A stretch of DNA of 9,649 bases from a virus (lineage: Duplodnaviria; Heunggongvirae; Uroviricota; Caudoviricetes), in IMG/VR virus record IMGVR_UViG_3300014893_000026, positions 1 to 9,649 of that record. One strand, given 5' to 3'. The position numbers were made by a program, and so were the translations under genes. Under the pieces are notes generated by a model that was given only the letters and a program-made list of their open reading frames with translations, was not told the DNA's origin and did no database searches. Positions 2,671-9,649 of this stretch are shown here, one piece after another (positions within the stretch are counted from its first letter, which is position 1; each line of letters opens with the position of its first letter).

Positions 2671-2886
2671 TTAATCAGTAATTATGACATTTGCTGCTGC
2701 AGGACCTTTAGCACCACTCTCTACAGAGAAGGTAACCTTTTGACCTTCAAATAAGGTTCGATAATTATCATTCTGAATCGCAGAAAAATGCACAAACACA
2801 TCTTTACTACCATCAACAGGAGAAATAAAGCCAAAACCTTTATCAGCGTTAAACCATTTTACTAAACCAGTCATTTTATTTGACAT
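2671..2886 (-). CDS. cspB: Cold-shock protein, CspA family
   Basis: 71 aa, [71 protein letters not shown], with RNP1-like KGFGFI and RNP2-like VFVHF motifs. Near-identical to my recollection of E. coli CspB. AAGGA 7 nt upstream of the ATG. Confidence 0.93.
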
Positions 2887-2941
2887 TCTACATTCCTTAA
2901 CTTGAGCCTTTCGGCATAAATGGCTTGTATAACAGAAACGA

Positions 2942-3100
2942 CTTCGTACTTAATTGGAGAGACTCAAAGAAGGAATAAGTGAATAACACCTGAAATGAGA
3001 ACTGCTTTAGTAAACTACTTCGTACTTAATTGGAGAGACTCAAAGAAGGAATAAGTGAATAACACCTGAAATGAGAACTGCTTTAGTAAACTACTTCGTA
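2942..3100. repeat. Perfect 76-bp tandem duplication (two full copies plus 7 bp of a third) in the cspB-cspF divergent intergenic region
   Basis: 2942-3017 and 3018-3093 are identical base for base (cttcgtacttaattggagagactcaaagaaggaataagtgaataacacctgaaatgagaactgctttagtaaacta); 3094-3100 restarts the unit (cttcgta) before diverging. Confidence 0.9.
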
Positions 3101-3262: not shown

Positions 3263-3475
3263 TTGTCCCGTAAAATGACAGGAATTCTCAAAACCTTTGA
3301 CGGCAAAAGCGGCAAAGGTCTTATAACCCCATCCGATGGTCGTATCGATGTCCAGCTTCATGTTTCAGCGCTCAATCTCCGCGATGCAGAAGAAATTACC
3401 ACCGGATTACGCGTGGAATTTTGCCGGATAAATGGTCTGCGTGGACCATCAGCTGCCAATGTTTACCTTTCATGA
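3263..3475 (+). CDS. cspF: Cold-shock-domain protein, CspA family (CspF-like)
   Basis: 70 aa, [70 protein letters not shown]. The conserved MS-x-KMTG N-terminus implies a TTG start at 3263 (AAGGA 6 nt upstream); ATG 3275 is the alternative. Divergent from cspB as in K-12 Qin. Confidence 0.85.
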
Positions 3476-3897: not shown

Positions 3898-4650
3898 TTA
3901 TCTCGTCACCTTTCTCAATTGTGCTTCAGCGTAAGATTCCTCCTGCCAGCACTTTGTAACCAGTTTATCAATGACATTTGCATATCCTTTATACCACTGA
4001 TAATCACTCAGGTCCGGTACCAGCTTCTGGACATGATGCCGCGCCAGTGTGGTTGGTAAACGACTAAACCGTTTTCCATTGCAACGCCCACAAATCTTAT
4101 AAACAGGTGTGCCATGAAGCCGGGTCCTTTTTTCATCCAGGACAATACCTTTACCCTTACACCCTCTGCACGCTGTGCTGACTTCTCCCTTACCATGGCA
4201 ATGCTGACATAGTTCCTTCACCCACTCTTCTTTGATAACAGATTCCCCGCTTCTGGAGTGTTTCACCACTTCGCGCAATACATTATGAAATCCAGTACCA
4301 GCACAATGCTCACAACGAGCCTTACTTGCCGCAGACCTGGAATAATCAGCAAAGGCAAAATTCACAAGGTAAGGAATAATCTGTAGCCGGGTTTCTTCAC
4401 TCAATTTATTCAATGTCGGGTTATCCAGTGCCATCGCGTAATTGAGCAGACCTTCAATCGCAAACTGAGGATCCTGAACACCAACTTTTGCCAGGAATAA
4501 GGCAAACCCAAGCGGTGCTTTCGACTGCACCATCCCCTGCGCAGCCATCACATCCGTAATCGTTAAACCACCAGAGCCTGTCGCCGGTGCGTCATCACTC
4601 AATTTTGGAGATTTTGGGGAGTAATATTTTGGTAAGGCTTCAAGGTTCAT
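3898..4650 (-). CDS. quuQ: Late-gene antiterminator Q
   Basis: 250 aa with Cys/His clusters (CEHCAGTG, CQHCHGKG, CRGCKGKG, CGRCNGKR), directly upstream of PR'/tR'. Length and N-terminus (MNLEALPKYYSPKSPK...) match my recollection of K-12 QuuQ (YdfT). GGAGA 6 nt upstream of the ATG. Confidence 0.88.
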   Translation of the reverse strand: MNLEALPKYYSPKSPKLSDDAPATGSGGLTITDVMAAQGMVQSKAPLGFALFLAKVGVQDPQFAIEGLLNYAMALDNPTLNKLSEETRLQIIPYLVNFAFADYSRSAASKARCEHCAGTGFHNVLREVVKHSRSGESVIKEEWVKELCQHCHGKGEVSTACRGCKGKGIVLDEKRTRLHGTPVYKICGRCNGKRFSRLPTTLARHHVQKLVPDLSDYQWYKGYANVIDKLVTKCWQEESYAEAQLRKVTR

Positions 4651-4677: not shown

Positions 4678-5664
4678 CTATNNNNNNNNNNGCGCACGAT
4701 CGATAAAACGAAATATCAGCTCCAGCTGGGAGCCATACTTCTCTTCAAATGCCACGGTATCCGCATGCAGCTCGTCGTGATGCTTTCTGCACAAAGGCAA
4801 CACAAAAAGGTCATGCGCTTTTGTTCCCATTCCACCCTGACCGTGACCTGTCAGGTGGTGGGGATCATCTGCGGGCTTTCCACAACATGCACACTGCTGT
4901 GTCTTAACCCAGCGCGTGTACTTTTCATTAACCCAGCGGCGACGTTTTGGGCGTAACATAAAAGACTCCGGCGACTCCGGATCCACTTTCAGCGCCAGCA
5001 CCTTTTTCGCCTTATCCTGGATGATGCTGGTGGCAGGAACCGAAGGCACAAGGTCACTTTCCCGGGTGACAGACGGCACAACAGGCTTCGGTAATCTCAG
5101 TGCCTTACGGGCTGCGCTTTCCGGTAAGGCATCCGCCAGGTCATTACGAATCAGCCACCAGCACAGTTCCGGCATTGTCACAACGTGACTGTCATCAAAA
5201 CCGAGATCCCGACGCACAACAGACAACACCCAGCGGGCACAGTTATCCGTTGCCATTAATTCCAGCCGTTCCGTGAACTGATCGCGCAGCTGGTTATCAC
5301 AGTGCCAGCACAGACGGATTGCACCCGGCGCGTGTCGCATTGTGGTCATGTTCTCGCTGTGCCAGTCGGAATGAGGCCACTGGCAGCCTTTTTCACGAAG
5401 TAACCAGCTTTCAAGACATTCCACGCCACCAGCACGACGGATCACTGCCTCATTGCGGAACACGGCCCGAACGGCAGGATCATCCGCCAGCGGTTGTGAT
5501 ACCGCCGGAACGGCACCACTGGCGAAAGATGAATAACGTTCCGGCTCAGGCTCCAGCAGGACACGCCCCTGCATAAACAGGGGCATCAGTTCTGAACCTG
5601 GTCTGAACAATACGATCCCCATACGCGGGGCAATTTCAGGGGTCAGTAGTGCTCTCACGGTCAC
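4678..5664 (-). CDS. DUF968-like protein with C-terminal Cys/His-rich HNH-like motif (YdfU-like); 3' end interrupted by an assembly gap
   Basis: 328-codon ORF; C-terminal CACCGKP...HHLTGHG...CRKHHDELH resembles an HNH/zinc-binding module. Position after Q matches K-12 Qin ydfU (from memory). The last codons span the N-run 4682-4691, so the true C-terminus and stop are uncertain. Start is GTG 5662-5664 or the next GTG (5656-5658); GAGG is upstream. Confidence 0.65.
   Translation of the reverse strand: MTVRALLTPEIAPRMGIVLFRPGSELMPLFMQGRVLLEPEPERYSSFASGAVPAVSQPLADDPAVRAVFRNEAVIRRAGGVECLESWLLREKGCQWPHSDWHSENMTTMRHAPGAIRLCWHCDNQLRDQFTERLELMATDNCARWVLSVVRRDLGFDDSHVVTMPELCWWLIRNDLADALPESAARKALRLPKPVVPSVTRESDLVPSVPATSIIQDKAKKVLALKVDPESPESFMLRPKRRRWVNEKYTRWVKTQQCACCGKPADDPHHLTGHGQGGMGTKAHDLFVLPLCRKHHDELHADTVAFEEKYGSQLELIFRFIDRAXXXX
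4682..4691. other. Assembly gap (10 N)
   Basis: Run of 10 ambiguous bases between the DUF968 gene 3' end and the Q start codon. Confidence 0.99.
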
Positions 5665-5665
5665 C

Positions 5666-6481
5666 TCAATGAACGGTATCGAGCAGCTTTAACAGCTCAG
5701 GGAATCGGGATTCGAAGAAATGCGGCTGCGTCTCGCGCGGATTTGCAGGACTGGTGATGTTCTTGCCGAACATGCAGCCTTTCGCGGTCAGCGACCAGAA
5801 TTTTTTGATGTTGTTAATCGCGGTACGACTGTATCGTTCGCGTTGTTCAACGATCCCCAGCTTCGCCATCTGGTGATATGCCTGATTAGCCGTCAGGCGG
5901 ATACCATACTGCTTCAGCAGTGCACTCAGCGACAGCGTAGGGCGGCTTGAACCATCTGGCGCATCAGCAGGTGCATCAATGGCATAGATCGGCATAAGTT
6001 CAGGAAGACCAGCTACCTTTGATAATTTCTGGTATGCACCAAGTTTCGAGGAGTTTGACAGATTTAGAGTCTTTGCTGCTGATTCAAGCAGAATGACCCC
6101 GGATTTAATTTTGTCAGATGTGGTTTCTTCTGGTGATGAATTATGAAGCGCATCAAAAGTACGTATCACTTTTAAGCTGAATGCCGGGCTGATCCACATT
6201 GCATATGCATAGACCAGCTCTTTACAGACATACGTCCCACCATTGCGCCCCTGAATGGTGATGACAGGAATACTACGGGAATCTCCCGTAGTTTCTTCTT
6301 CCAATAATTCCACAAGAGCCTTCGTTTCAGGACGACGCATAAACTCGTGAACTTCCAGCGAACGGGAGGAGCGATTCTCACCAGCGGCAAGAAGAGCAGC
6401 TTTCTGAAGGTCGTTAAGACAGTAGTTAGATTCGAAGTACTGGCGCACAGAAACGCCATCAATTACAAGCAACTGATTCAT
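5666..6481 (-). CDS. KilA-N domain protein (Roi/antirepressor-like)
   Basis: ORF-track entry 5666..6493 starts at GTG; the likely start is ATG 6479-6481 (MNQLLVIDGVSVRQ...) with GGAGA 6 nt upstream. The N-terminal ~100 aa (GTYVCKELVYAYAMWISPAFSLKVIRTF) resemble the KilA-N DNA-binding domain. Stop is 1 nt from the DUF968 gene start. Confidence 0.78.
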   Translation of the reverse strand: MNQLLVIDGVSVRQYFESNYCLNDLQKAALLAAGENRSSRSLEVHEFMRRPETKALVELLEEETTGDSRSIPVITIQGRNGGTYVCKELVYAYAMWISPAFSLKVIRTFDALHNSSPEETTSDKIKSGVILLESAAKTLNLSNSSKLGAYQKLSKVAGLPELMPIYAIDAPADAPDGSSRPTLSLSALLKQYGIRLTANQAYHQMAKLGIVEQRERYSRTAINNIKKFWSLTAKGCMFGKNITSPANPRETQPHFFESRFPELLKLLDTVH

Positions 6482-6578
6482 TGGTTTCTCCACAAATTTT
6501 TATCCACGAGCGGGACTGCACTCCCTTTTCGTTGATGCAGGATGAACTTACTGCGATTTTTAATAGTTATCAAGGATA

Positions 6579-6643: not shown

Positions 6644-7039
6644 TTACCGAGTTGCTAATTTGCAACTCGCTTTTTCGTACTTACTGATAGTGATCTCGAC
6701 CTTCCCCTCCGGGATAACCGGTCCCCACTCCACCAGCATTCTTTTCACCTGACTGTCGTCTTCCCACACACCCGCGTGGGTCAGGGCGTCAAACAGCGCC
6801 TTGTTATAGTTGTCCAGATCGCGGATCCGGTTATCCGGAGGAAACAACACGATCTCCACTGAAGCAGGTGCCGACGTTGGTTTTGGCAGACGACGTAACT
6901 GCTCAACTATTGCTGCACACGCCGCGCTCTGGAATTTTCGCCCCGCCGCGCTTATCAGGCTCTTACCAGCAAACGCCCCTTTGTTGGGGTGTCGCCAGTA
7001 CGTGTTCACGCTGGGCGGAAAAGGCAGGATCAGCTTCAT
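6644..7039 (-). CDS. rusA: RusA-family Holliday junction resolvase
   Basis: 131 aa. LPFPPSVNTYWRH and RDLDNYNKALFDALTHAGVWEDDSQV match the recalled RusA motifs LPWPPSNNRYYRH and [26 protein letters not shown]. Start overlaps the upstream gene stop (ATGA). Confidence 0.85.
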   Translation of the reverse strand: MKLILPFPPSVNTYWRHPNKGAFAGKSLISAAGRKFQSAACAAIVEQLRRLPKPTSAPASVEIVLFPPDNRIRDLDNYNKALFDALTHAGVWEDDSQVKRMLVEWGPVIPEGKVEITISKYEKASCKLATR

Positions 7040-7362
7040 ACTTTCAGGCCCCTCTCATGTAACCAGTGGGCTGCACGCAGCCTGGCGTTTTCCTCACCGG
7101 CAAGCAGTGAGCGGATAATCCCGACCGCCTCGCTGTCGTCGTCCTTCACCACGGTATGAAGCGTGATCCCCCGGGCCACACCACGCTTTATCGTGATGAC
7201 GCCTTTTTTCTCCAGTGCGCGAAGATGCTCCACCGCTGCATTCACTGAACGGTATCCCAGCATGGTTGCCACCTCCTGATTGGTTGGCGGGAAGCCACGT
7301 TCTTTCTGATAAGAAATCAGCATATCCAGCACCTGCTGCTGGCATTGAGTTAACGTCGTCAT
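7036..7362 (-). CDS. LexA N-terminal DNA-binding-domain protein lacking the S24 peptidase domain
   Basis: Likely start ATG 7360-7362 (overlaps upstream stop, TAATG). MTTLTQCQQQVLDMLISYQKERGFPPTNQEVATMLGYRSVNAAVEHLRALEKKGVITIKRGVARGITL aligns along its length with recalled E. coli LexA residues ~1-70, including the recognition-helix region (GFRSPNAAEEHLKAL in LexA). Only ~40 further residues follow; no Ser/Lys peptidase domain. Confidence 0.75.
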   Translation of the reverse strand: MTTLTQCQQQVLDMLISYQKERGFPPTNQEVATMLGYRSVNAAVEHLRALEKKGVITIKRGVARGITLHTVVKDDDSEAVGIIRSLLAGEENARLRAAHWLHERGLKV

Positions 7363-7850
7363 TAAGCCCCCACGTAATTCCCTGACAGATACCACTCATC
7401 ACCCGATGCAGCGCGCTTGCTGCTTTTCCGTAAGCACCGCTCACGACGCGCAAGAAAATTGTTTCGCTCTTGCTGGGAGTGGCTTTCACGGAATGCCGCC
7501 ATCCACACCGTTGCAGCACGACGGTATAAGCCCCTTGACTCCAGTTCTTCAGCCTGGCGGGTCAGGCACAAAATCACCCGGGGATCGTTAGTGCCGACAT
7601 AGAAATTGCGCACAGGTCTGGTTTCACGAACTGGTTGTGGTTCCGGCTCCTGCGCTCTCTCAGTCAGGCGCGGGAAATGTCTGCGTGTATCTCCTTCACA
7701 ACGGTGAGCCACACGCCCACTCTGACGTAACTTGCTTGCTGACTGCAGAACGCGCTGCCGTGAGTAACCTGCAAAAGCATCCGCAACGTCTCCGGAAGTA
7801 CACCCCGGATGGGCTTCAATGAATTTCTGAACGTCATTTAACAGACTCAT
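7362..7850 (-). CDS. Putative regulator: N-terminal winged-helix-like region plus C-terminal PerC/Pch-like motif
   Basis: Likely start ATG 7848-7850 (MSLLNDVQKF...) with GGGGG upstream. C-terminal RGLYRRAATVWMAAF...ERNNFLARRERCL resembles the GLWRRA..RW motif recalled for PerC/Pch activators. The PerC assignment is tentative. Confidence 0.55.
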   Translation of the reverse strand: MSLLNDVQKFIEAHPGCTSGDVADAFAGYSRQRVLQSASKLRQSGRVAHRCEGDTRRHFPRLTERAQEPEPQPVRETRPVRNFYVGTNDPRVILCLTRQAEELESRGLYRRAATVWMAAFRESHSQQERNNFLARRERCLRKSSKRAASGDEWYLSGNYVGA

Positions 7851-7852
7851 GA

Positions 7853-8794
7853 TCACCCCCTGAATCCTGCCGGGATCTGGCTGTAGTCCACGTTGTCGTA
7901 ACTGGATTTGAAGTACGGGTCTTCGCGTTTTTCGGTGTACGTGCTGACGGACGGTGATAAGCGCAGGGAAAGCTCATCCCATTTTTCCCGCAACTTCGAC
8001 GGGCTGAGCACGTTACGGCACCAGAACGGATCGCGGTTGACGCGGCTGTACATCTCGCAGATTTGTTTGTGAGTACGACCATCCTGCACACACATCAGGC
8101 GAATTTCGTTTGCCCAGGCTGTCCAGTTCGGTTCTTTGGGACGAACCACCTCGCCGTCACATTCGGCGGCCTGCTCGTACAGGGCGATGATTTTTTTCCA
8201 GAGCCACTGTGCGCAGGTCAAATCATCCTGCGTTCCCCACTGGCGCTTTTTAGGGCTGAATACAACCGCATCAGGATGGCGAGTTAAAAACTCCTGTTCA
8301 GCCGTCTGCGTGTCCGGTTGCGAAGCGTCCGGACGAGAAGTATTTTTATCTGACGGATCATGTTTTGATTTTACTGACGGATCCCCGCCAGATTCTGACG
8401 GGTGAAAACCCGCTTTTTTGCCAGATTTCGACGCATCAAATTTTGACGGGTCAGATTTTGATGCGTCAGATTTTGACGGGTCAGAATCTGACAGTTGAGA
8501 AAATGCCGCTGCCTGAAGCTTCGCAACGTTAAGCTGATAAACATTCGACGCATTGCGGTTACCCTGGCGACGCGCCTTACGCGTTAACCAGCCTTCTGCT
8601 TCCAGCCGTGCGATAGCCGTTCTGACGGTACTCATCCCCGCGCCAATCTGGCGGGCAATGGTTTCAATTGATGGCCAGCACACACCTTCGTCATTACTGA
8701 AATCAGCCAGGCGGGCCATAATTGCCACGCTGGATAACTTCATGCCTGATGCAGCGCAACCATCCCATACATAGCCGGTTAATTTAGTGCTCAT
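7853..8794 (-). CDS. Phage replication initiation protein (O-like), N-terminal winged-helix domain, internal iteron-encoded linker
   Basis: 313 aa. The N-terminus (SVAIMARLADFSNDEGVCWPSIETIARQIGAGMSTVRTAIARLEAEGWL) looks like the HTH domain of phage replication initiators. The central low-complexity SDSDPSKSDASKSDPSKFDASKS region is encoded by tandem DNA repeats. AGAGG upstream of ATG 8792-8794. Confidence 0.7.
   Translation of the reverse strand: MSTKLTGYVWDGCAASGMKLSSVAIMARLADFSNDEGVCWPSIETIARQIGAGMSTVRTAIARLEAEGWLTRKARRQGNRNASNVYQLNVAKLQAAAFSQLSDSDPSKSDASKSDPSKFDASKSGKKAGFHPSESGGDPSVKSKHDPSDKNTSRPDASQPDTQTAEQEFLTRHPDAVVFSPKKRQWGTQDDLTCAQWLWKKIIALYEQAAECDGEVVRPKEPNWTAWANEIRLMCVQDGRTHKQICEMYSRVNRDPFWCRNVLSPSKLREKWDELSLRLSPSVSTYTEKREDPYFKSSYDNVDYSQIPAGFRG
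8340..8500. repeat. Iteron-like array of ~15-bp imperfect direct repeats inside the replication initiator gene (candidate origin)
   Basis: Recurring (T/C)TGACGG / TGA(C/T)GC cores at 8351, 8375, 8396, 8429, 8444, 8458, 8474 (e.g. cagattttgacgggt / cagattttgatgcgt / cagattttgacgggt), with a more AT-rich stretch at 8336-8375 on the gene-downstream side. Confidence 0.6.
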
Positions 8795-8803
8795 GACCGA
8801 CCT

Positions 8804-9142
8804 CTATTTCCCTGAATTTACGACGAAACTGTTCGAGCGGGCTGAAGCACTCATGCTCATAGCCTTCGCGGAGGTAGATAACTCGTTGTGTTTCCGGCTC
8901 CCAACGAATGACTCTGACGGGCACTCCGTAGTGATCTTTGAACCAGCGGTTAACTTGTCGCAAAGGACTGTCTCCTTCTGCCGGTTGAAATCACCCACAG
9001 CCCACTCAGCAAAGCTGTGGGTTACAATTTCCCTGTCACCTGGTACATTAACTGCATAGCAATACTCCACCTTCGCTTTTCCACCCGGTACAGGAAGCGC
9101 AATCAGTTGCGAGCGACGGTAGTGTGTTGTTAAACTGTTCAT
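8804..9142 (-). CDS. Hypothetical 112-aa protein between the CII-like gene and the replication gene
   Basis: ATG 9140-9142 overlaps the upstream gene stop (ATGA); GGAGA 9 nt upstream. Stop is 9 nt before the replication gene start. Same orientation as the operon. No family recognised; the S/A-rich C-terminus and a competing plus-strand ORF (8787..9059) reduce confidence. Confidence 0.4.
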
Positions 9143-9649
9143 GCGTTAGTTTCTCCACAGTCACGACACGCCACGGCGCCCGGAGCTGCACACTCGCGGG
9201 CGTCATTACTTTCTGAAATGCAAAAGATTTTGTAGACCAGTGCTGCATGCTCCTGCAGCTTCGAAATTGAGAGATACAGCTCGTCGTTAATTGCTGTCTT
9301 CTCATGCGGTTCCACCACACCGTCTTCGATTGCCGAACGAATCTGTCTGGAATAACTGCCAATCTGTTCAATGACTTCCAGCAGGCGCTGGTTAATATCC
9401 GCGTTGTCCACATCCTCGACGTCAGGAAGAGACACAAAGACGCCATTTGCAGACTGCGCCACAGCGTCAGCAATGAAGTGAGTTCCACCAGCACGTTGCA
9501 AAATCATTGCCCATCCCAGCGGGAAAATCTGATCGCCATCGGCACGAAGGCGGTTAAATAATGCGTTTTCTGTTACATCCAGCCAGTCAGCTGCTTCAGC
9601 GTAACCACCCGGCAACGCTGCGATAGTTTTTCTGACAGCTTTCACGTAC
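9139..9649 (-). CDS. Phage CII-like regulatory protein (CP76-type), 5' end probably beyond window
   Basis: ORF open to the window edge (the first codon in the track is a GTG, and the frame stays open upstream). [29 protein letters not shown]...VSLPDV resembles the recalled pattern of ~160-aa phage regulatory CII-family proteins. Position upstream of the replication gene fits. Assignment from memory. Confidence 0.45.

What the first reader, a model, noticed from the sequence alone, without database searches (positions are those of the whole stretch)
7853..8794. Iteron array inside the initiator gene, with no helicase-loader gene following
The ~15-bp repeats at 8340-8500 inside the initiator ORF, flanked by a more AT-rich stretch on the gene-downstream side, mirror ori-lambda inside gene O. 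In lambda-like modules the next gene is a helicase loader (P or DnaC-like), but here the next gene is the PerC-like regulator. Either the initiator C-terminal domain recruits host DnaB/DnaC directly, the module is of a different type, or the prophage replication module is incomplete.
Basis: partly seen in the sequence, partly recalled or inferred. Interest (0 to 1): 0.45.

Follow-up and report, generated by a model that had tools for sequence, protein, structure and literature searches.

The report
Prophage replication origin inside loader-less initiator gene
This is a common E. coli/Shigella prophage replication gene with its own origin repeats inside it; it lacks a phage helicase loader, apparently because its tail copies that of the host restart protein DnaT, an ordinary module with one mechanistically interesting twist.

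Summary
The 313-aa ORF (7853-8794, minus strand) is a phage replication initiator. Its inter-domain linker is encoded by eight copies of a TGAC-NN-GTCA core: five in tandem at 15-bp spacing and three dispersed. These abut the AT-richest 40 bp of the gene. Codon-level conservation across about 10 genera shows the constraint is on DNA, not on the peptide.

The C-terminal domain is homologous to lambda O's. No P-, DnaC- or DnaB-like gene exists in the window or in the whole genome of the 98%-identical, viable phage SfIV. The next gene is PerC-like and is not a loader. The module is therefore complete, not decayed.

New here is a link between the initiator's tail and its loader. In 80 related genome loci, every initiator with a lambda-like Trp/acidic tail (42/42) is followed by a P homologue. 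Initiators ending in ...IPxGFRG, as this one does, never are (0/18 genome loci, 0/118 viral contigs). They are followed by a DnaC-like gene or by no loader. That tail is the conserved C-terminus of host DnaT (...SQIPPGFRG).

Best reading: an O-type initiator that recruits host DnaB-DnaC through a DnaT-like tail. The sequence family is known and very common. The tail-loader link is inferred, not shown.

The parts
7853..8794 (-). Replication initiator gene, 313 aa, O-like
   Evidence: ORF. phrog_391 'replication initiation O-like' at 8.5e-136. Pfam HTH_36 at aa 23-70. 98-99% identical to SfIV gp41 and SfII 'O protein family protein'.
8489..8794 (-). N-terminal winged-helix domain (aa 1-102), presumed iteron binder
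   Evidence: HTH_36, GntR and DnaD_N hits. The AF2 model is folded over 1-102. Foldseek finds MarR/ArsR winged-helix regulators.
8429..8498 (.). Five tandem iteron cores at 15-bp spacing (8429, 8444, 8459, 8474, 8489). They encode the pentapeptide repeat D-P/A-S-K-S.
   Evidence: Copy number varies in steps of 5 aa among close homologues.
8351..8405 (.). Three dispersed iteron cores (8351, 8375, 8396). The first two are GATCCGTCA on the coding strand, each with a Dam GATC site, and are nearly invariant across the family.
   Evidence: D138-P139-S140-V141 and P147 are invariant and D146 is nearly invariant (at least 90%) among 24 homologues.
8336..8375 (.). AT-richest 40 bp of the gene (72.5% AT), candidate unwinding element
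8240..8488 (-). Disordered inter-domain linker (aa 103-185), encoded by the origin region
   Evidence: AF2 pLDDT below 50 over 103-166 and 173-185.
7952..8239 (-). Helical C-terminal domain (aa 186-281), homologous to the lambda O C-terminal domain
7856..7951 (-). Disordered C-terminal tail (aa 282-313) ending SQIPAGFRG (7856-7882), the DnaT-type tail
   Evidence: DnaT ends SQIPPGFRG. BLASTP matches 8 of 9 residues. hhalign E = 5.8e-5. Disordered in AF2.
7362..7856 (-). Neighbouring PerC-family gene (YfdN-like) that overlaps the initiator stop codon; not a helicase loader
   Evidence: Pfam PerC 1.3e-9. phrog_1324 transcriptional activator. No hit to the P HMM or to DnaC/DnaB. No PDB relative. 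RefSeq names it yfdN.

Best explanation
The region is the replication origin and initiator gene of an e14/SfII/SfIV-type lambdoid prophage.

The initiator has four parts:
- an N-terminal winged-helix domain;
- a disordered linker;
- a helical C-terminal domain homologous to that of lambda O;
- a disordered tail ending ...SQIPAGFRG.

The DNA that encodes the linker is the origin. It holds eight TGAC-NN-GTCA cores, five of them at 15-bp spacing, next to a 40-bp AT-rich patch.

Inferred mechanism:
1. The winged-helix domains bind the cores and assemble an O-some-like complex that opens the AT-rich patch.
2. Lambda O hands the job to phage P. This initiator instead uses its tail, a copy of the conserved C-terminal motif of host DnaT, to feed into the host DnaC-dependent DnaB loading pathway.
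3. The phage therefore needs no loader gene of its own.

Shown here: the repeats, the DNA-level constraint on them, the domain homologies, the absence of any loader gene, and the tail-loader covariation. Inferred: binding of the protein to the cores, unwinding, and the tail's partner (DnaC/DnaB, PriA or DnaT).
For: Iterons
- The array is real and non-random.
- In 19 homologous genes from about 10 genera, the Ser codon of linker D-[PAT]-S motifs is TCA in 70 of 75 cases, against 137 of 600 for other Ser codons (Fisher 4e-34).
- The central amino acid varies (P, A or T) while the palindrome arms stay fixed. This points to a constraint on DNA.
- phiP27 L17 has a 51%-identical N-terminal domain and an unrelated C-terminus. 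It carries the same TGA(C/A)CC(G/T)TCA units at 15-bp spacing. SfV orf39, with a different N-terminal domain, has different repeats.
- The repeats sit in the disordered linker, as in lambda, beside the AT-richest stretch of the gene.

No loader
- An HMM built from 41 P homologues, and phmmer with DnaC and DnaB, find nothing in six frames of the window or of the whole SfIV genome.
- SfIV is a viable temperate phage.
- The gene is present in 2724 of 5426 complete E. coli genomes.

Tail
- DnaT ends ...VSEPDSQIPPGFRG.
- In 105 DnaT orthologues the tail is as conserved as the folded three-helix bundle (0.889 against 0.887 mean column conservation), and more than residues 154-168 (0.72).
- Genome set: Trp/acidic tail, 42 of 42 followed by P. 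GFRG tail, 0 of 18 with P, 2 with a DnaC-like gene, 15 with none, and one with only a 22-bit P-like fragment (L119).
- Viral set: 118 contigs with an IP[PA]GFRG-stop tail on at least 6 initiator bodies. None has P, and 34 have a DnaC-like gene, in nearly all cases immediately downstream.
- P0046 is 75% identical to this protein but has a lambda-type tail, and it is followed by Phage_lambda_P.
- vB_EcoS-673R7 'O' carries the DnaT-like tail and is followed by a DnaC-like gene. The SPN1S initiator carries a full DnaT-like C-terminal domain and has no loader.
Against: - No experiment on this family was found. The SfIV paper does not mention an origin or iterons.
- The association statistics are not corrected for phylogeny, and the viral set is redundant.
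- The tail match is short (9-14 residues).
- The literature documents no DnaT-DnaC contact (PMC5778457). The 2026 preprimosome paper suggests the DnaT N-terminal domain, not the tail, as the DnaB/DnaC recruiter (PMC13377028).
- The AT-rich patch is only about 40 bp.
- No DnaA box lies in 8300-8550.
Confidence: 0.6

Rival explanations
1. The 15-bp repeats are only a slippage-generated, low-complexity peptide linker (D-P/A-S-K-S). They have no origin function, and the real origin lies elsewhere.
For: The repeats are in frame and encode a disordered pentapeptide repeat. Copy number varies freely among close homologues. No binding data exist.
Against: Ser is TCA in 70 of 75 motif codons against 23% elsewhere in the same genes, across about 10 genera. 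The central residue changes while the TGAC/GTCA arms are kept. Three cores are non-tandem with irregular spacing. The same units follow the N-terminal domain into phiP27 L17, which has a different C-terminus.
Confidence: 0.12
2. The module is a decayed prophage remnant that lost its P-type loader and no longer replicates autonomously.
For: Relatives at 46-75% identity do have P directly downstream. E. coli K-12-like genomes carry a truncated 122-aa remnant of this gene (L087 and L088). L119 retains a 22-bit P-like fragment.
Against: The gene order is identical, at 97-99% identity, in isolated phages SfIV, SfII, vB_EcoM-689R6, Kati and PhiR49_1. SfIV forms virions and lysogenises. The ORF is intact. 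Loss of P is always accompanied by a specific, conserved replacement tail.
Confidence: 0.05
3. A loader is present but unrecognised: the translationally coupled 164-aa PerC-like protein, or the 119-aa LexA-DNA-binding-like protein, loads DnaB.
For: The PerC-like gene overlaps the initiator stop codon exactly where P sits in relatives. Its N-terminal 100 aa have no assigned function beyond a weak winged-helix hit.
Against: It matches Pfam PerC. It has no similarity to P, DnaC or DnaB or to any PDB chain. It is not conserved among other P-less relatives with the same tail, where the next gene is a Dam or other DNA methylase, a ParB-like protein or a winged-helix protein.
Confidence: 0.06
4. The DnaT-like tail does not contact DnaC/DnaB. 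It docks on PriA or on host DnaT, so the phage borrows the whole restart primosome. Alternatively it only mediates self-oligomerisation.
For: The DnaT C-terminal domain docks on PriA through a hydrophobic, conserved interface and forms filaments (PMC13377028). No DnaT-DnaC interaction is documented (PMC5778457).
Against: Tail-bearing initiators are often immediately followed by a phage DnaC-like gene (34 of 118) and never by P. This ties the tail to the loader type. Phage initiators do not carry the DnaT linker that binds PriB.
Confidence: 0.25

Closest known systems
Phage lambda O protein and ori-lambda (initiator plus helicase-loader module)
   Same: The origin iterons lie inside the initiator gene, in the part that encodes the inter-domain linker, with an AT-rich flank. 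The C-terminal domain is homologous (BLASTP 5e-25). The gene sits after cII in the early-right operon.
   Different: The N-terminal domain is HTH_36, not Phage_rep_O. The iterons are 10-bp TGAC-NN-GTCA cores at 15-bp spacing. There is no P gene. The Trp/acidic tail (…NTDWIYGVDL) is replaced by …SQIPAGFRG.
Shigella phages SfIV gp41 and SfII 'O protein family protein'; truncated initiator remnant with yfdN in K-12-like E. coli genomes
   Same: 97-99% identical DNA and the same gene order: YmfL/cII-like, YmfM-like, DUF4222, initiator, PerC-like, LexA-like, RusA. Two E. coli genomes hold a 122-aa C-terminal remnant of the initiator followed by a 97%-identical PerC-like gene (L087 and L088). RefSeq names the PerC-like gene yfdN. 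Equating that remnant with K-12 yfdO of the CPS-53 prophage rests on memory.
   Different: Essentially nothing; this is the same element. The published descriptions do not mention iterons, an origin or the missing loader.
phiP27 L17 with DnaC-like and DnaB-like genes (initiator, loader, helicase module)
   Same: 51% identical N-terminal domain, and the same TGA(C/A)CC(G/T)TCA repeats at 15-bp spacing in the linker.
   Different: An unrelated C-terminal domain and tail. The phage brings its own DnaC-like loader and DnaB-like helicase.
E. coli DnaT (primosomal protein I), and phage initiators with a DnaT-like C-terminal domain (epsilon15, SPN1S, phiV10, TL-2011b)
   Same: The C-terminal motif IPxGFRG is the same. 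The SPN1S-type initiator is likewise followed by no loader.
   Different: This protein lacks the DnaT three-helix-bundle domain PF17948. Only the tail is shared.
Rac/vB_EcoS-673R7-type 'O' followed by a DnaC-like protein
   Same: The same …IPPGFRG tail, and the same operon position after cII.
   Different: A different initiator body (BLASTP matches the tail only). It encodes its own DnaC-like loader.
Iteron plasmids (pSC101 RepA, R6K pi, RK2 TrfA); comparison from general knowledge
   Same: An iteron-binding initiator that depends on host DnaB-DnaC rather than on its own loader.
   Different: Those plasmids use DnaA boxes and DnaA to help recruit DnaB-DnaC. No DnaA box lies in 8300-8550. The protein folds are unrelated.

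Membership tests
Lambda-type ori-in-O initiator plus P loader module | Iteron array inside the initiator ORF, in the inter-domain linker region | tested here: met
Lambda-type ori-in-O initiator plus P loader module | AT-rich segment next to the iterons on the 3' side of the gene | tested here: met
   8336-8375 is 72.5% AT, the maximum for the gene. It is short and is interleaved with two cores.
Lambda-type ori-in-O initiator plus P loader module | N-terminal Phage_rep_O (PF04492) DNA-binding domain | tested here: not met
   HTH_36 (PF13730) instead. Lambda O gives PF04492 in the same kind of scan.
Lambda-type ori-in-O initiator plus P loader module | C-terminal domain homologous to that of lambda O | tested here: met
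   BLASTP 5e-25, 30% identity over 216 columns. tblastn 1e-17.
Lambda-type ori-in-O initiator plus P loader module | P-type helicase loader gene immediately downstream | tested here: not met
   The P HMM finds nothing in the window or in the whole SfIV genome. The next gene is PerC-like.
Lambda-type ori-in-O initiator plus P loader module | Trp/acidic C-terminal tail (WNxxEAWE or NTDWIxG) seen in all 42 Trp/acidic-tailed relatives, every one of which is followed by P | tested here: not met
   The tail is …DYSQIPAGFRG.
Lambda-type ori-in-O initiator plus P loader module | Initiator binds the iterons and unwinds the origin | not testable with these tools
   Needs EMSA or footprinting and an origin-function assay.
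DnaT / DnaT-like C-terminal-domain proteins | DnaT three-helix-bundle ssDNA-binding domain (PF17948) | tested here: not met
DnaT / DnaT-like C-terminal-domain proteins | Conserved C-terminal IPxGFRG tail | tested here: met
   SQIPAGFRG against SQIPPGFRG. The tail is conserved in 105 DnaT orthologues.
Loader-less ('initiator only') phage replication module that depends on the host DnaC pathway | No P, DnaC or DnaB homologue in the module or in the genome of a near-identical complete phage | tested here: met
Loader-less ('initiator only') phage replication module that depends on the host DnaC pathway | The module works in a viable phage | tested here: met
   SfIV was isolated, imaged and shown to lysogenise (PMC3851460). 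It is 98% identical across the module.
Loader-less ('initiator only') phage replication module that depends on the host DnaC pathway | Replication requires host DnaC and DnaB | not testable with these tools
   Needs dnaC(ts) and dnaB(ts) hosts or in-vitro reconstitution.
Helicase loader (P, DnaC/DnaI or DnaD type) for the 164-aa downstream protein | Sequence or profile similarity to a known loader family | tested here: not met
   Only the PerC domain is found. No hit to the P HMM or to DnaC/DnaB. No PDB relative.

The most novel reading that the evidence does not exclude
The last 10-15 residues of O-type initiators are an exchangeable short motif that determines which helicase loader is used.
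- A Trp/acidic tail couples to phage P.
- An IPxGFRG tail, copied from or shared with host DnaT, couples to DnaC-type loaders, whether host or phage encoded.

If so, the conserved and so far unassigned C-terminal tail of DnaT would be the element through which the restart primosome engages DnaB-DnaC. Many temperate phages would have dispensed with a loader gene by mimicking it.
Probability: 0.4. Interest if true: 0.65.

Novelty: new member of a known kind. Interest (0 to 1): 0.45.

Why it matters
Taken at face value the locus is ordinary. It is an O-like initiator with an internal origin, present in about half of complete E. coli genomes and already sequenced in phages SfII and SfIV.

Its value is as a natural experiment. 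Within one initiator lineage, the loader gene and the initiator's last 15 or so residues switch together. The loader-less state carries the tail of host DnaT.

How DnaT and the preprimosome recruit DnaB-DnaC is stated to be unknown in the 2026 structural paper (PMC13377028). The phage data point to a specific, easily tested peptide.

The result also gives annotators a simple rule. The tail motif predicts whether a lambdoid prophage should carry P, carry a DnaC-like gene, or carry no loader. A missing loader then need not be read as decay.

Tried and rejected
- DnaA boxes: none with 0-1 mismatch in or near 8300-8550, so a DnaA-assisted, plasmid-like route is not supported by sequence.
- PerC-like protein as a cryptic loader: rejected.
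- The first viral-contig scan with the protein returned only 98-100% identical copies and was uninformative for comparison. The genome scan with an alignment solved this.
- My first ORF-based scoring missed three P genes (L142, L146, L151) and misclassified three tails. I re-scored with HMMs on stop-to-stop frames.
- Literature searches for an 'initiator-solo' module, for a DnaT-like tail in phage initiators and for the PGFRG motif found nothing relevant. Weigel and Seitz 2006, which I recall as classifying such modules, is not in the library and could not be checked.
- The papers available do not say what the DnaT tail (residues 154-179) contacts.
- The top 120 DnaT homologues were all Enterobacteriaceae at 71% identity or more. 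I therefore could not test whether the third tail class, in Providencia/Proteus phages, mimics the DnaT of those hosts.
Full report
CONTEXT

All genes of interest lie on the minus strand of a lambdoid, e14/SfII/SfIV-type prophage. Their order is given below.

| Coordinates | Gene |
|---|---|
| 9139-9645 | cII/YmfL-like |
| 8804-9142 | YmfM-like |
| 8784-8963 | DUF4222 |
| 7853-8794 | 313-aa initiator |
| 7362-7856 | PerC-like |
| 7036-7395 | LexA-DNA-binding-like |
| 6644-7039 | RusA |
| 5666-6493 | KilA-N |
| 4678-5664 | DUF968/HNH |
| 3898-4650 | Q antiterminator |

Two csp genes and a lysis cassette follow.

- The stretch 7000-9649 is 97-99% identical to isolated phages SfIV, SfII, vB_EcoM-689R6 and Kati.
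- The initiator gene occurs in 2724 of 5426 complete E. coli genomes. RefSeq calls it only 'helix-turn-helix domain-containing protein'.

1. THE OBSERVATION

The repeats are real.
- Tandem Repeats Finder reports 8422-8485 with period 15 (81% matches) and period 30 (88%).
- The repeat finder puts six copies in register between 8386 and 8501.
- Read directly, there are eight 10-bp cores of the form TGAC-NN-GTCA at 8351, 8375, 8396, 8429, 8444, 8459, 8474 and 8489. The last five are exactly 15 bp apart.
- TGACGGRTC with up to one mismatch occurs 9 times in the window against 3.1 expected. No shuffle out of 200 reached 9, and six of the hits cluster in 8351-8482.
- The AT-richest 40 bp of the gene (8336-8375, 72.5% AT) lies on the gene-downstream side of the tandem block.

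The one caveat is that the AT-rich patch is short and holds two cores itself.

2. ARE THEY ITERONS OR JUST A REPETITIVE LINKER?

The repeats are in frame and encode D-P/A-S-K-S pentapeptides in a segment that AlphaFold2 leaves disordered (aa 103-185). A peptide-level explanation therefore had to be excluded.

I fetched 80 related loci from one genome per species and extracted 19 full-length homologues at 46-98% identity. They come from Escherichia, Shigella, Klebsiella, Pantoea, Erwinia, Mixta, Morganella, Edwardsiella, Providencia, Serratia and Citrobacter.

- I defined motifs at the amino-acid level, as in-frame D-[PAT]-S in the linker. Their Ser codon is TCA in 70 of 75 cases, against 137 of 600 for all other Ser codons in the same genes (Fisher 4e-34).
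- The middle residue varies (CCG, GCG, GCA, ACG, ACA) while the flanking TGAC and GTCA arms are kept.
- Two cores, GATCCGTCA on the coding strand, encode D138-P139-S140 and D146-P147-S148. Residues 138-141 and P147 are invariant and D146 is nearly invariant across 24 homologues. They are also fixed at the nucleotide level in almost all 19 genes.
- Close homologues differ in length in steps of 5 aa, for example 303, 313, 318 and 323 aa. This is copy-number variation of the 15-bp unit.
- phiP27 L17 shares the N-terminal domain (51% identity) but has an unrelated C-terminus. It carries the same TGA(C/A)CC(G/T)TCA units at 15-bp spacing. SfV orf39, with a different N-terminal domain, has different repeats in its linker.

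The repeat therefore tracks the DNA-binding domain and is constrained as DNA. This is what is expected of iterons. Binding itself is inferred, not shown.

3. THE PROTEIN

- Pfam finds only HTH_36 at aa 23-70, plus weak DnaD_N and RP-C hits.
- PHROGs places the protein in phrog_391, 'replication initiation O-like'.
- Residues 70-277 align with lambda O residues 78-270 (BLASTP 5e-25). tblastn finds O of lambda and Stx phages at 1e-17.
- Lambda O's own N-terminal domain belongs to a different Pfam family, Phage_rep_O.
- A model of aa 166-313 alone is confident for the helical domain (pLDDT 84) and leaves the last 30 or so residues disordered.

4. NO HELICASE LOADER

- The next gene overlaps the initiator stop codon. 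It is a PerC-family protein that RefSeq names yfdN. It has no PDB relative.
- An HMM built from 41 lambda-P homologues found in the related loci, and phmmer with phiP27 DnaC-like and DnaB-like proteins, find nothing in six frames of the window or of the whole 39.7-kb SfIV genome. The SfIV annotation agrees.
- SfIV was isolated, imaged and shown to lysogenise (PMC3851460).

The module is therefore complete and functional without a phage loader.

5. WHAT REPLACED P

In the 80 genome loci many initiators, including full-length relatives at 46-60% identity, are directly followed by a P homologue. Sorting the initiators by their last 30 residues gave a clean partition. Table 1 shows it re-scored with HMMs on stop-to-stop frames.

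Table 1. Tail class against downstream loader, 80 genome loci.

| Tail class | Loci | Followed by P | Followed by DnaC-like | No loader found |
|---|---|---|---|---|
| Trp/acidic (HWNSPEAWENTL, or D[FY]xNTDWIxG as in lambda O) | 42 | 42 | 0 | 0 |
| ...IPxGFRG | 18 | 0 | 2 (L110, L114) | 15 |
| ...AWxxIWxQAxEQAA (Providencia, Proteus, Morganella, Edwardsiella, Sodalis) | 16 | 0 | 0 | 16 |
| Other (L090, L124, L156, L163) | 4 | 3 | 0 | 1 |

- One GFRG-tail locus (L119) has only a 22-bit P-like fragment and is not counted in the last three columns.
- Fisher's test for the first two classes gives 1e-15. It is not corrected for phylogeny.
- A close natural swap exists. P0046 from Pantoea agglomerans is 75% identical to this protein up to ...LSP, then carries ...DFDNTDWIYG..., and is followed by Phage_lambda_P.

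The GFRG tail is the C-terminus of E. coli DnaT.
- Translating dnaT from MG1655 gives ...RDVNTVSEPDSQIPPGFRG-stop. The window protein ends ...DNVDYSQIPAGFRG-stop. Some relatives end ...VNHISEPDTEIPPGFRG-stop.
- BLASTP matches 8 of 9 residues. hhalign aligns the last 33 columns at E 5.8e-5.
- In 105 DnaT orthologues the tail (residues 169-179) is as conserved as the folded three-helix bundle (0.889 against 0.887), and more than residues 154-168 (0.72). This marks it as a functional motif.

An independent scan of viral contigs for IP[PA]GFRG followed by a stop returned 118 contigs.
- The tail sits on at least six unrelated or distantly related initiator bodies. These are this type, the SfV orf39 type, the Rac/673R7 'O' type, a 358-aa type with a phiP27-L17-like N-terminus, the SPN1S/epsilon15 type with a full DnaT-like C-terminal domain, and an unknown 281-aa type.
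- None of the 118 has a P homologue anywhere in the locus.
- 34 have a DnaC-like gene, in nearly all cases immediately downstream. The rest show no loader.
- tblastn of DnaT against phage genomes shows the same picture. The SPN1S initiator (62.8% identity to DnaT 86-179) has no loader downstream. vB_EcoS-673R7 'O' (DnaT-like over 93-179) is followed by a DnaC-like gene.

6. MECHANISM

Shown here:
- an origin-like iteron array under DNA-level constraint;
- a protein built as winged helix, linker, O-type C-terminal domain and DnaT-type tail;
- absence of any loader gene;
- strict covariation of tail type with loader type.

From established knowledge, recalled rather than checked here: the C-terminal part of lambda O recruits the P-DnaB complex, and DnaT is the primosome component needed before DnaB-DnaC loading.

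Inferred: the initiator assembles on the cores, opens the AT-rich patch, and uses its DnaT-type tail to enter the host DnaC-dependent loading route.

The tail's direct partner is open.
- The link with DnaC-type loaders favours DnaC or DnaB-DnaC.
- PriA and DnaT itself cannot be excluded. PriA binds the DnaT C-terminal domain through a hydrophobic, conserved surface (PMC13377028).
- The 2017 review notes that no DnaT-DnaC contact has been documented (PMC5778457).
- The 2026 paper says recruitment of DnaB/DnaC 'remains unknown' and suggests the DnaT N-terminal domain (PMC13377028).

7. COMPARISON AND NOVELTY

- The element itself is known sequence: SfIV gp41, SfII 'O protein family protein', and a truncated 122-aa remnant next to yfdN in K-12-like E. 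coli genomes (L087/L088).
- The kind is known: an O-like initiator with an internal origin.
- Loader-less initiators with DnaT-like C-termini are already annotated, for example as 'DnaT-like ssDNA-binding domain-containing protein' or 'primosomal protein I'.
- I found no description of three things: the iterons of this family, the DnaT-type tail on an O-type C-terminal domain, or the rule linking tail to loader.
- I rate it a new member of a known kind, with a moderately interesting and testable mechanistic lead.

8. VERDICT

The 'incomplete module' and 'hidden loader' options are rejected.

Confidence, by part:
- about 0.75 that the array is the origin;
- about 0.7 that the module relies on the host DnaC pathway;
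- about 0.4-0.5 that the tail is the direct coupling element to DnaC/DnaB.

Noticed in passing
L097, L098, L101, L102, L112, L120-L122, L125, L133, L137, L144, L145, L150, L155 (3' ends of the initiator ORFs): A third tail class occurs on O-type initiators in Providencia, Proteus, Morganella, Edwardsiella and Sodalis. It reads ...RIEEIAxELAGKxGxRRMxDFxGRxAWxxIWxQAxEQAA and is never followed by P or a DnaC-like gene (0 of 16). Its partner is unknown. It might mimic a different host factor.
   Followed up: partly
window 8356-8359 and 8380-8383; relatives L003, L104, L108, L287, SfII and SfV: The two most conserved iteron cores each contain a Dam site (GATC) 24 bp apart in the AT-rich patch. Many relatives carry a Dam or other DNA methylase gene directly after the initiator or the PerC-like gene. 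This suggests methylation control of the origin.
   Followed up: no
window 4682-4691: A run of 10 N lies inside the 3' end of the DUF968/HNH gene, so its translation ends in XXXX. It is an assembly gap or a masked stretch.
   Followed up: no
window 2936-3100: A 76-bp tandem repeat (2.2 copies, 98% identical) lies in the intergenic region between the two divergent cold-shock-protein genes (2671-2886 minus strand, 3263-3475 plus strand).
   Followed up: no
L087 and L088 (E. coli chromosomes), 5340-5708: A 122-aa C-terminal remnant of this initiator (aa 192-313, tail included) is followed by an intact PerC-like gene. By my recollection this matches yfdO-yfdN of the K-12 CPS-53 prophage. It shows what a truly decayed copy looks like, in contrast to the window.
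   Followed up: partly
L119 6636-6869: A 78-aa reading frame with weak similarity to lambda P (22 bits, E about 1e-4) lies downstream of an initiator that carries the GFRG tail. It may be a relic of a displaced P gene.
   Followed up: no
whole window: 9-mers within 2 mismatches of the DnaA box TTATCCACA are over-represented: 50 against 28 +/- 5 expected, and no shuffle out of 200 reached 50. None lies in the iteron region. The cause is unexplained and may be compositional.
   Followed up: no
L005 4403-4557 (SfV orf39 gene): SfV orf39 is a different HTH_36 initiator with an identical 24-aa DnaT-type tail. It has its own linker repeats: GTGAATCTCCTGCACTACC three times and TGACTGGTTCT three times. 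This suggests a separate iteron specificity on the same tail.
   Followed up: partly
L089, L090, L117 (downstream of P-less initiators): In Pantoea-type relatives the initiator is followed by a 440-aa or so protein with a ParB/sulfiredoxin-like motif (IIDGHHRY) instead of PerC or Dam. The slot after the initiator seems to be a hot spot for cargo genes.
   Followed up: no
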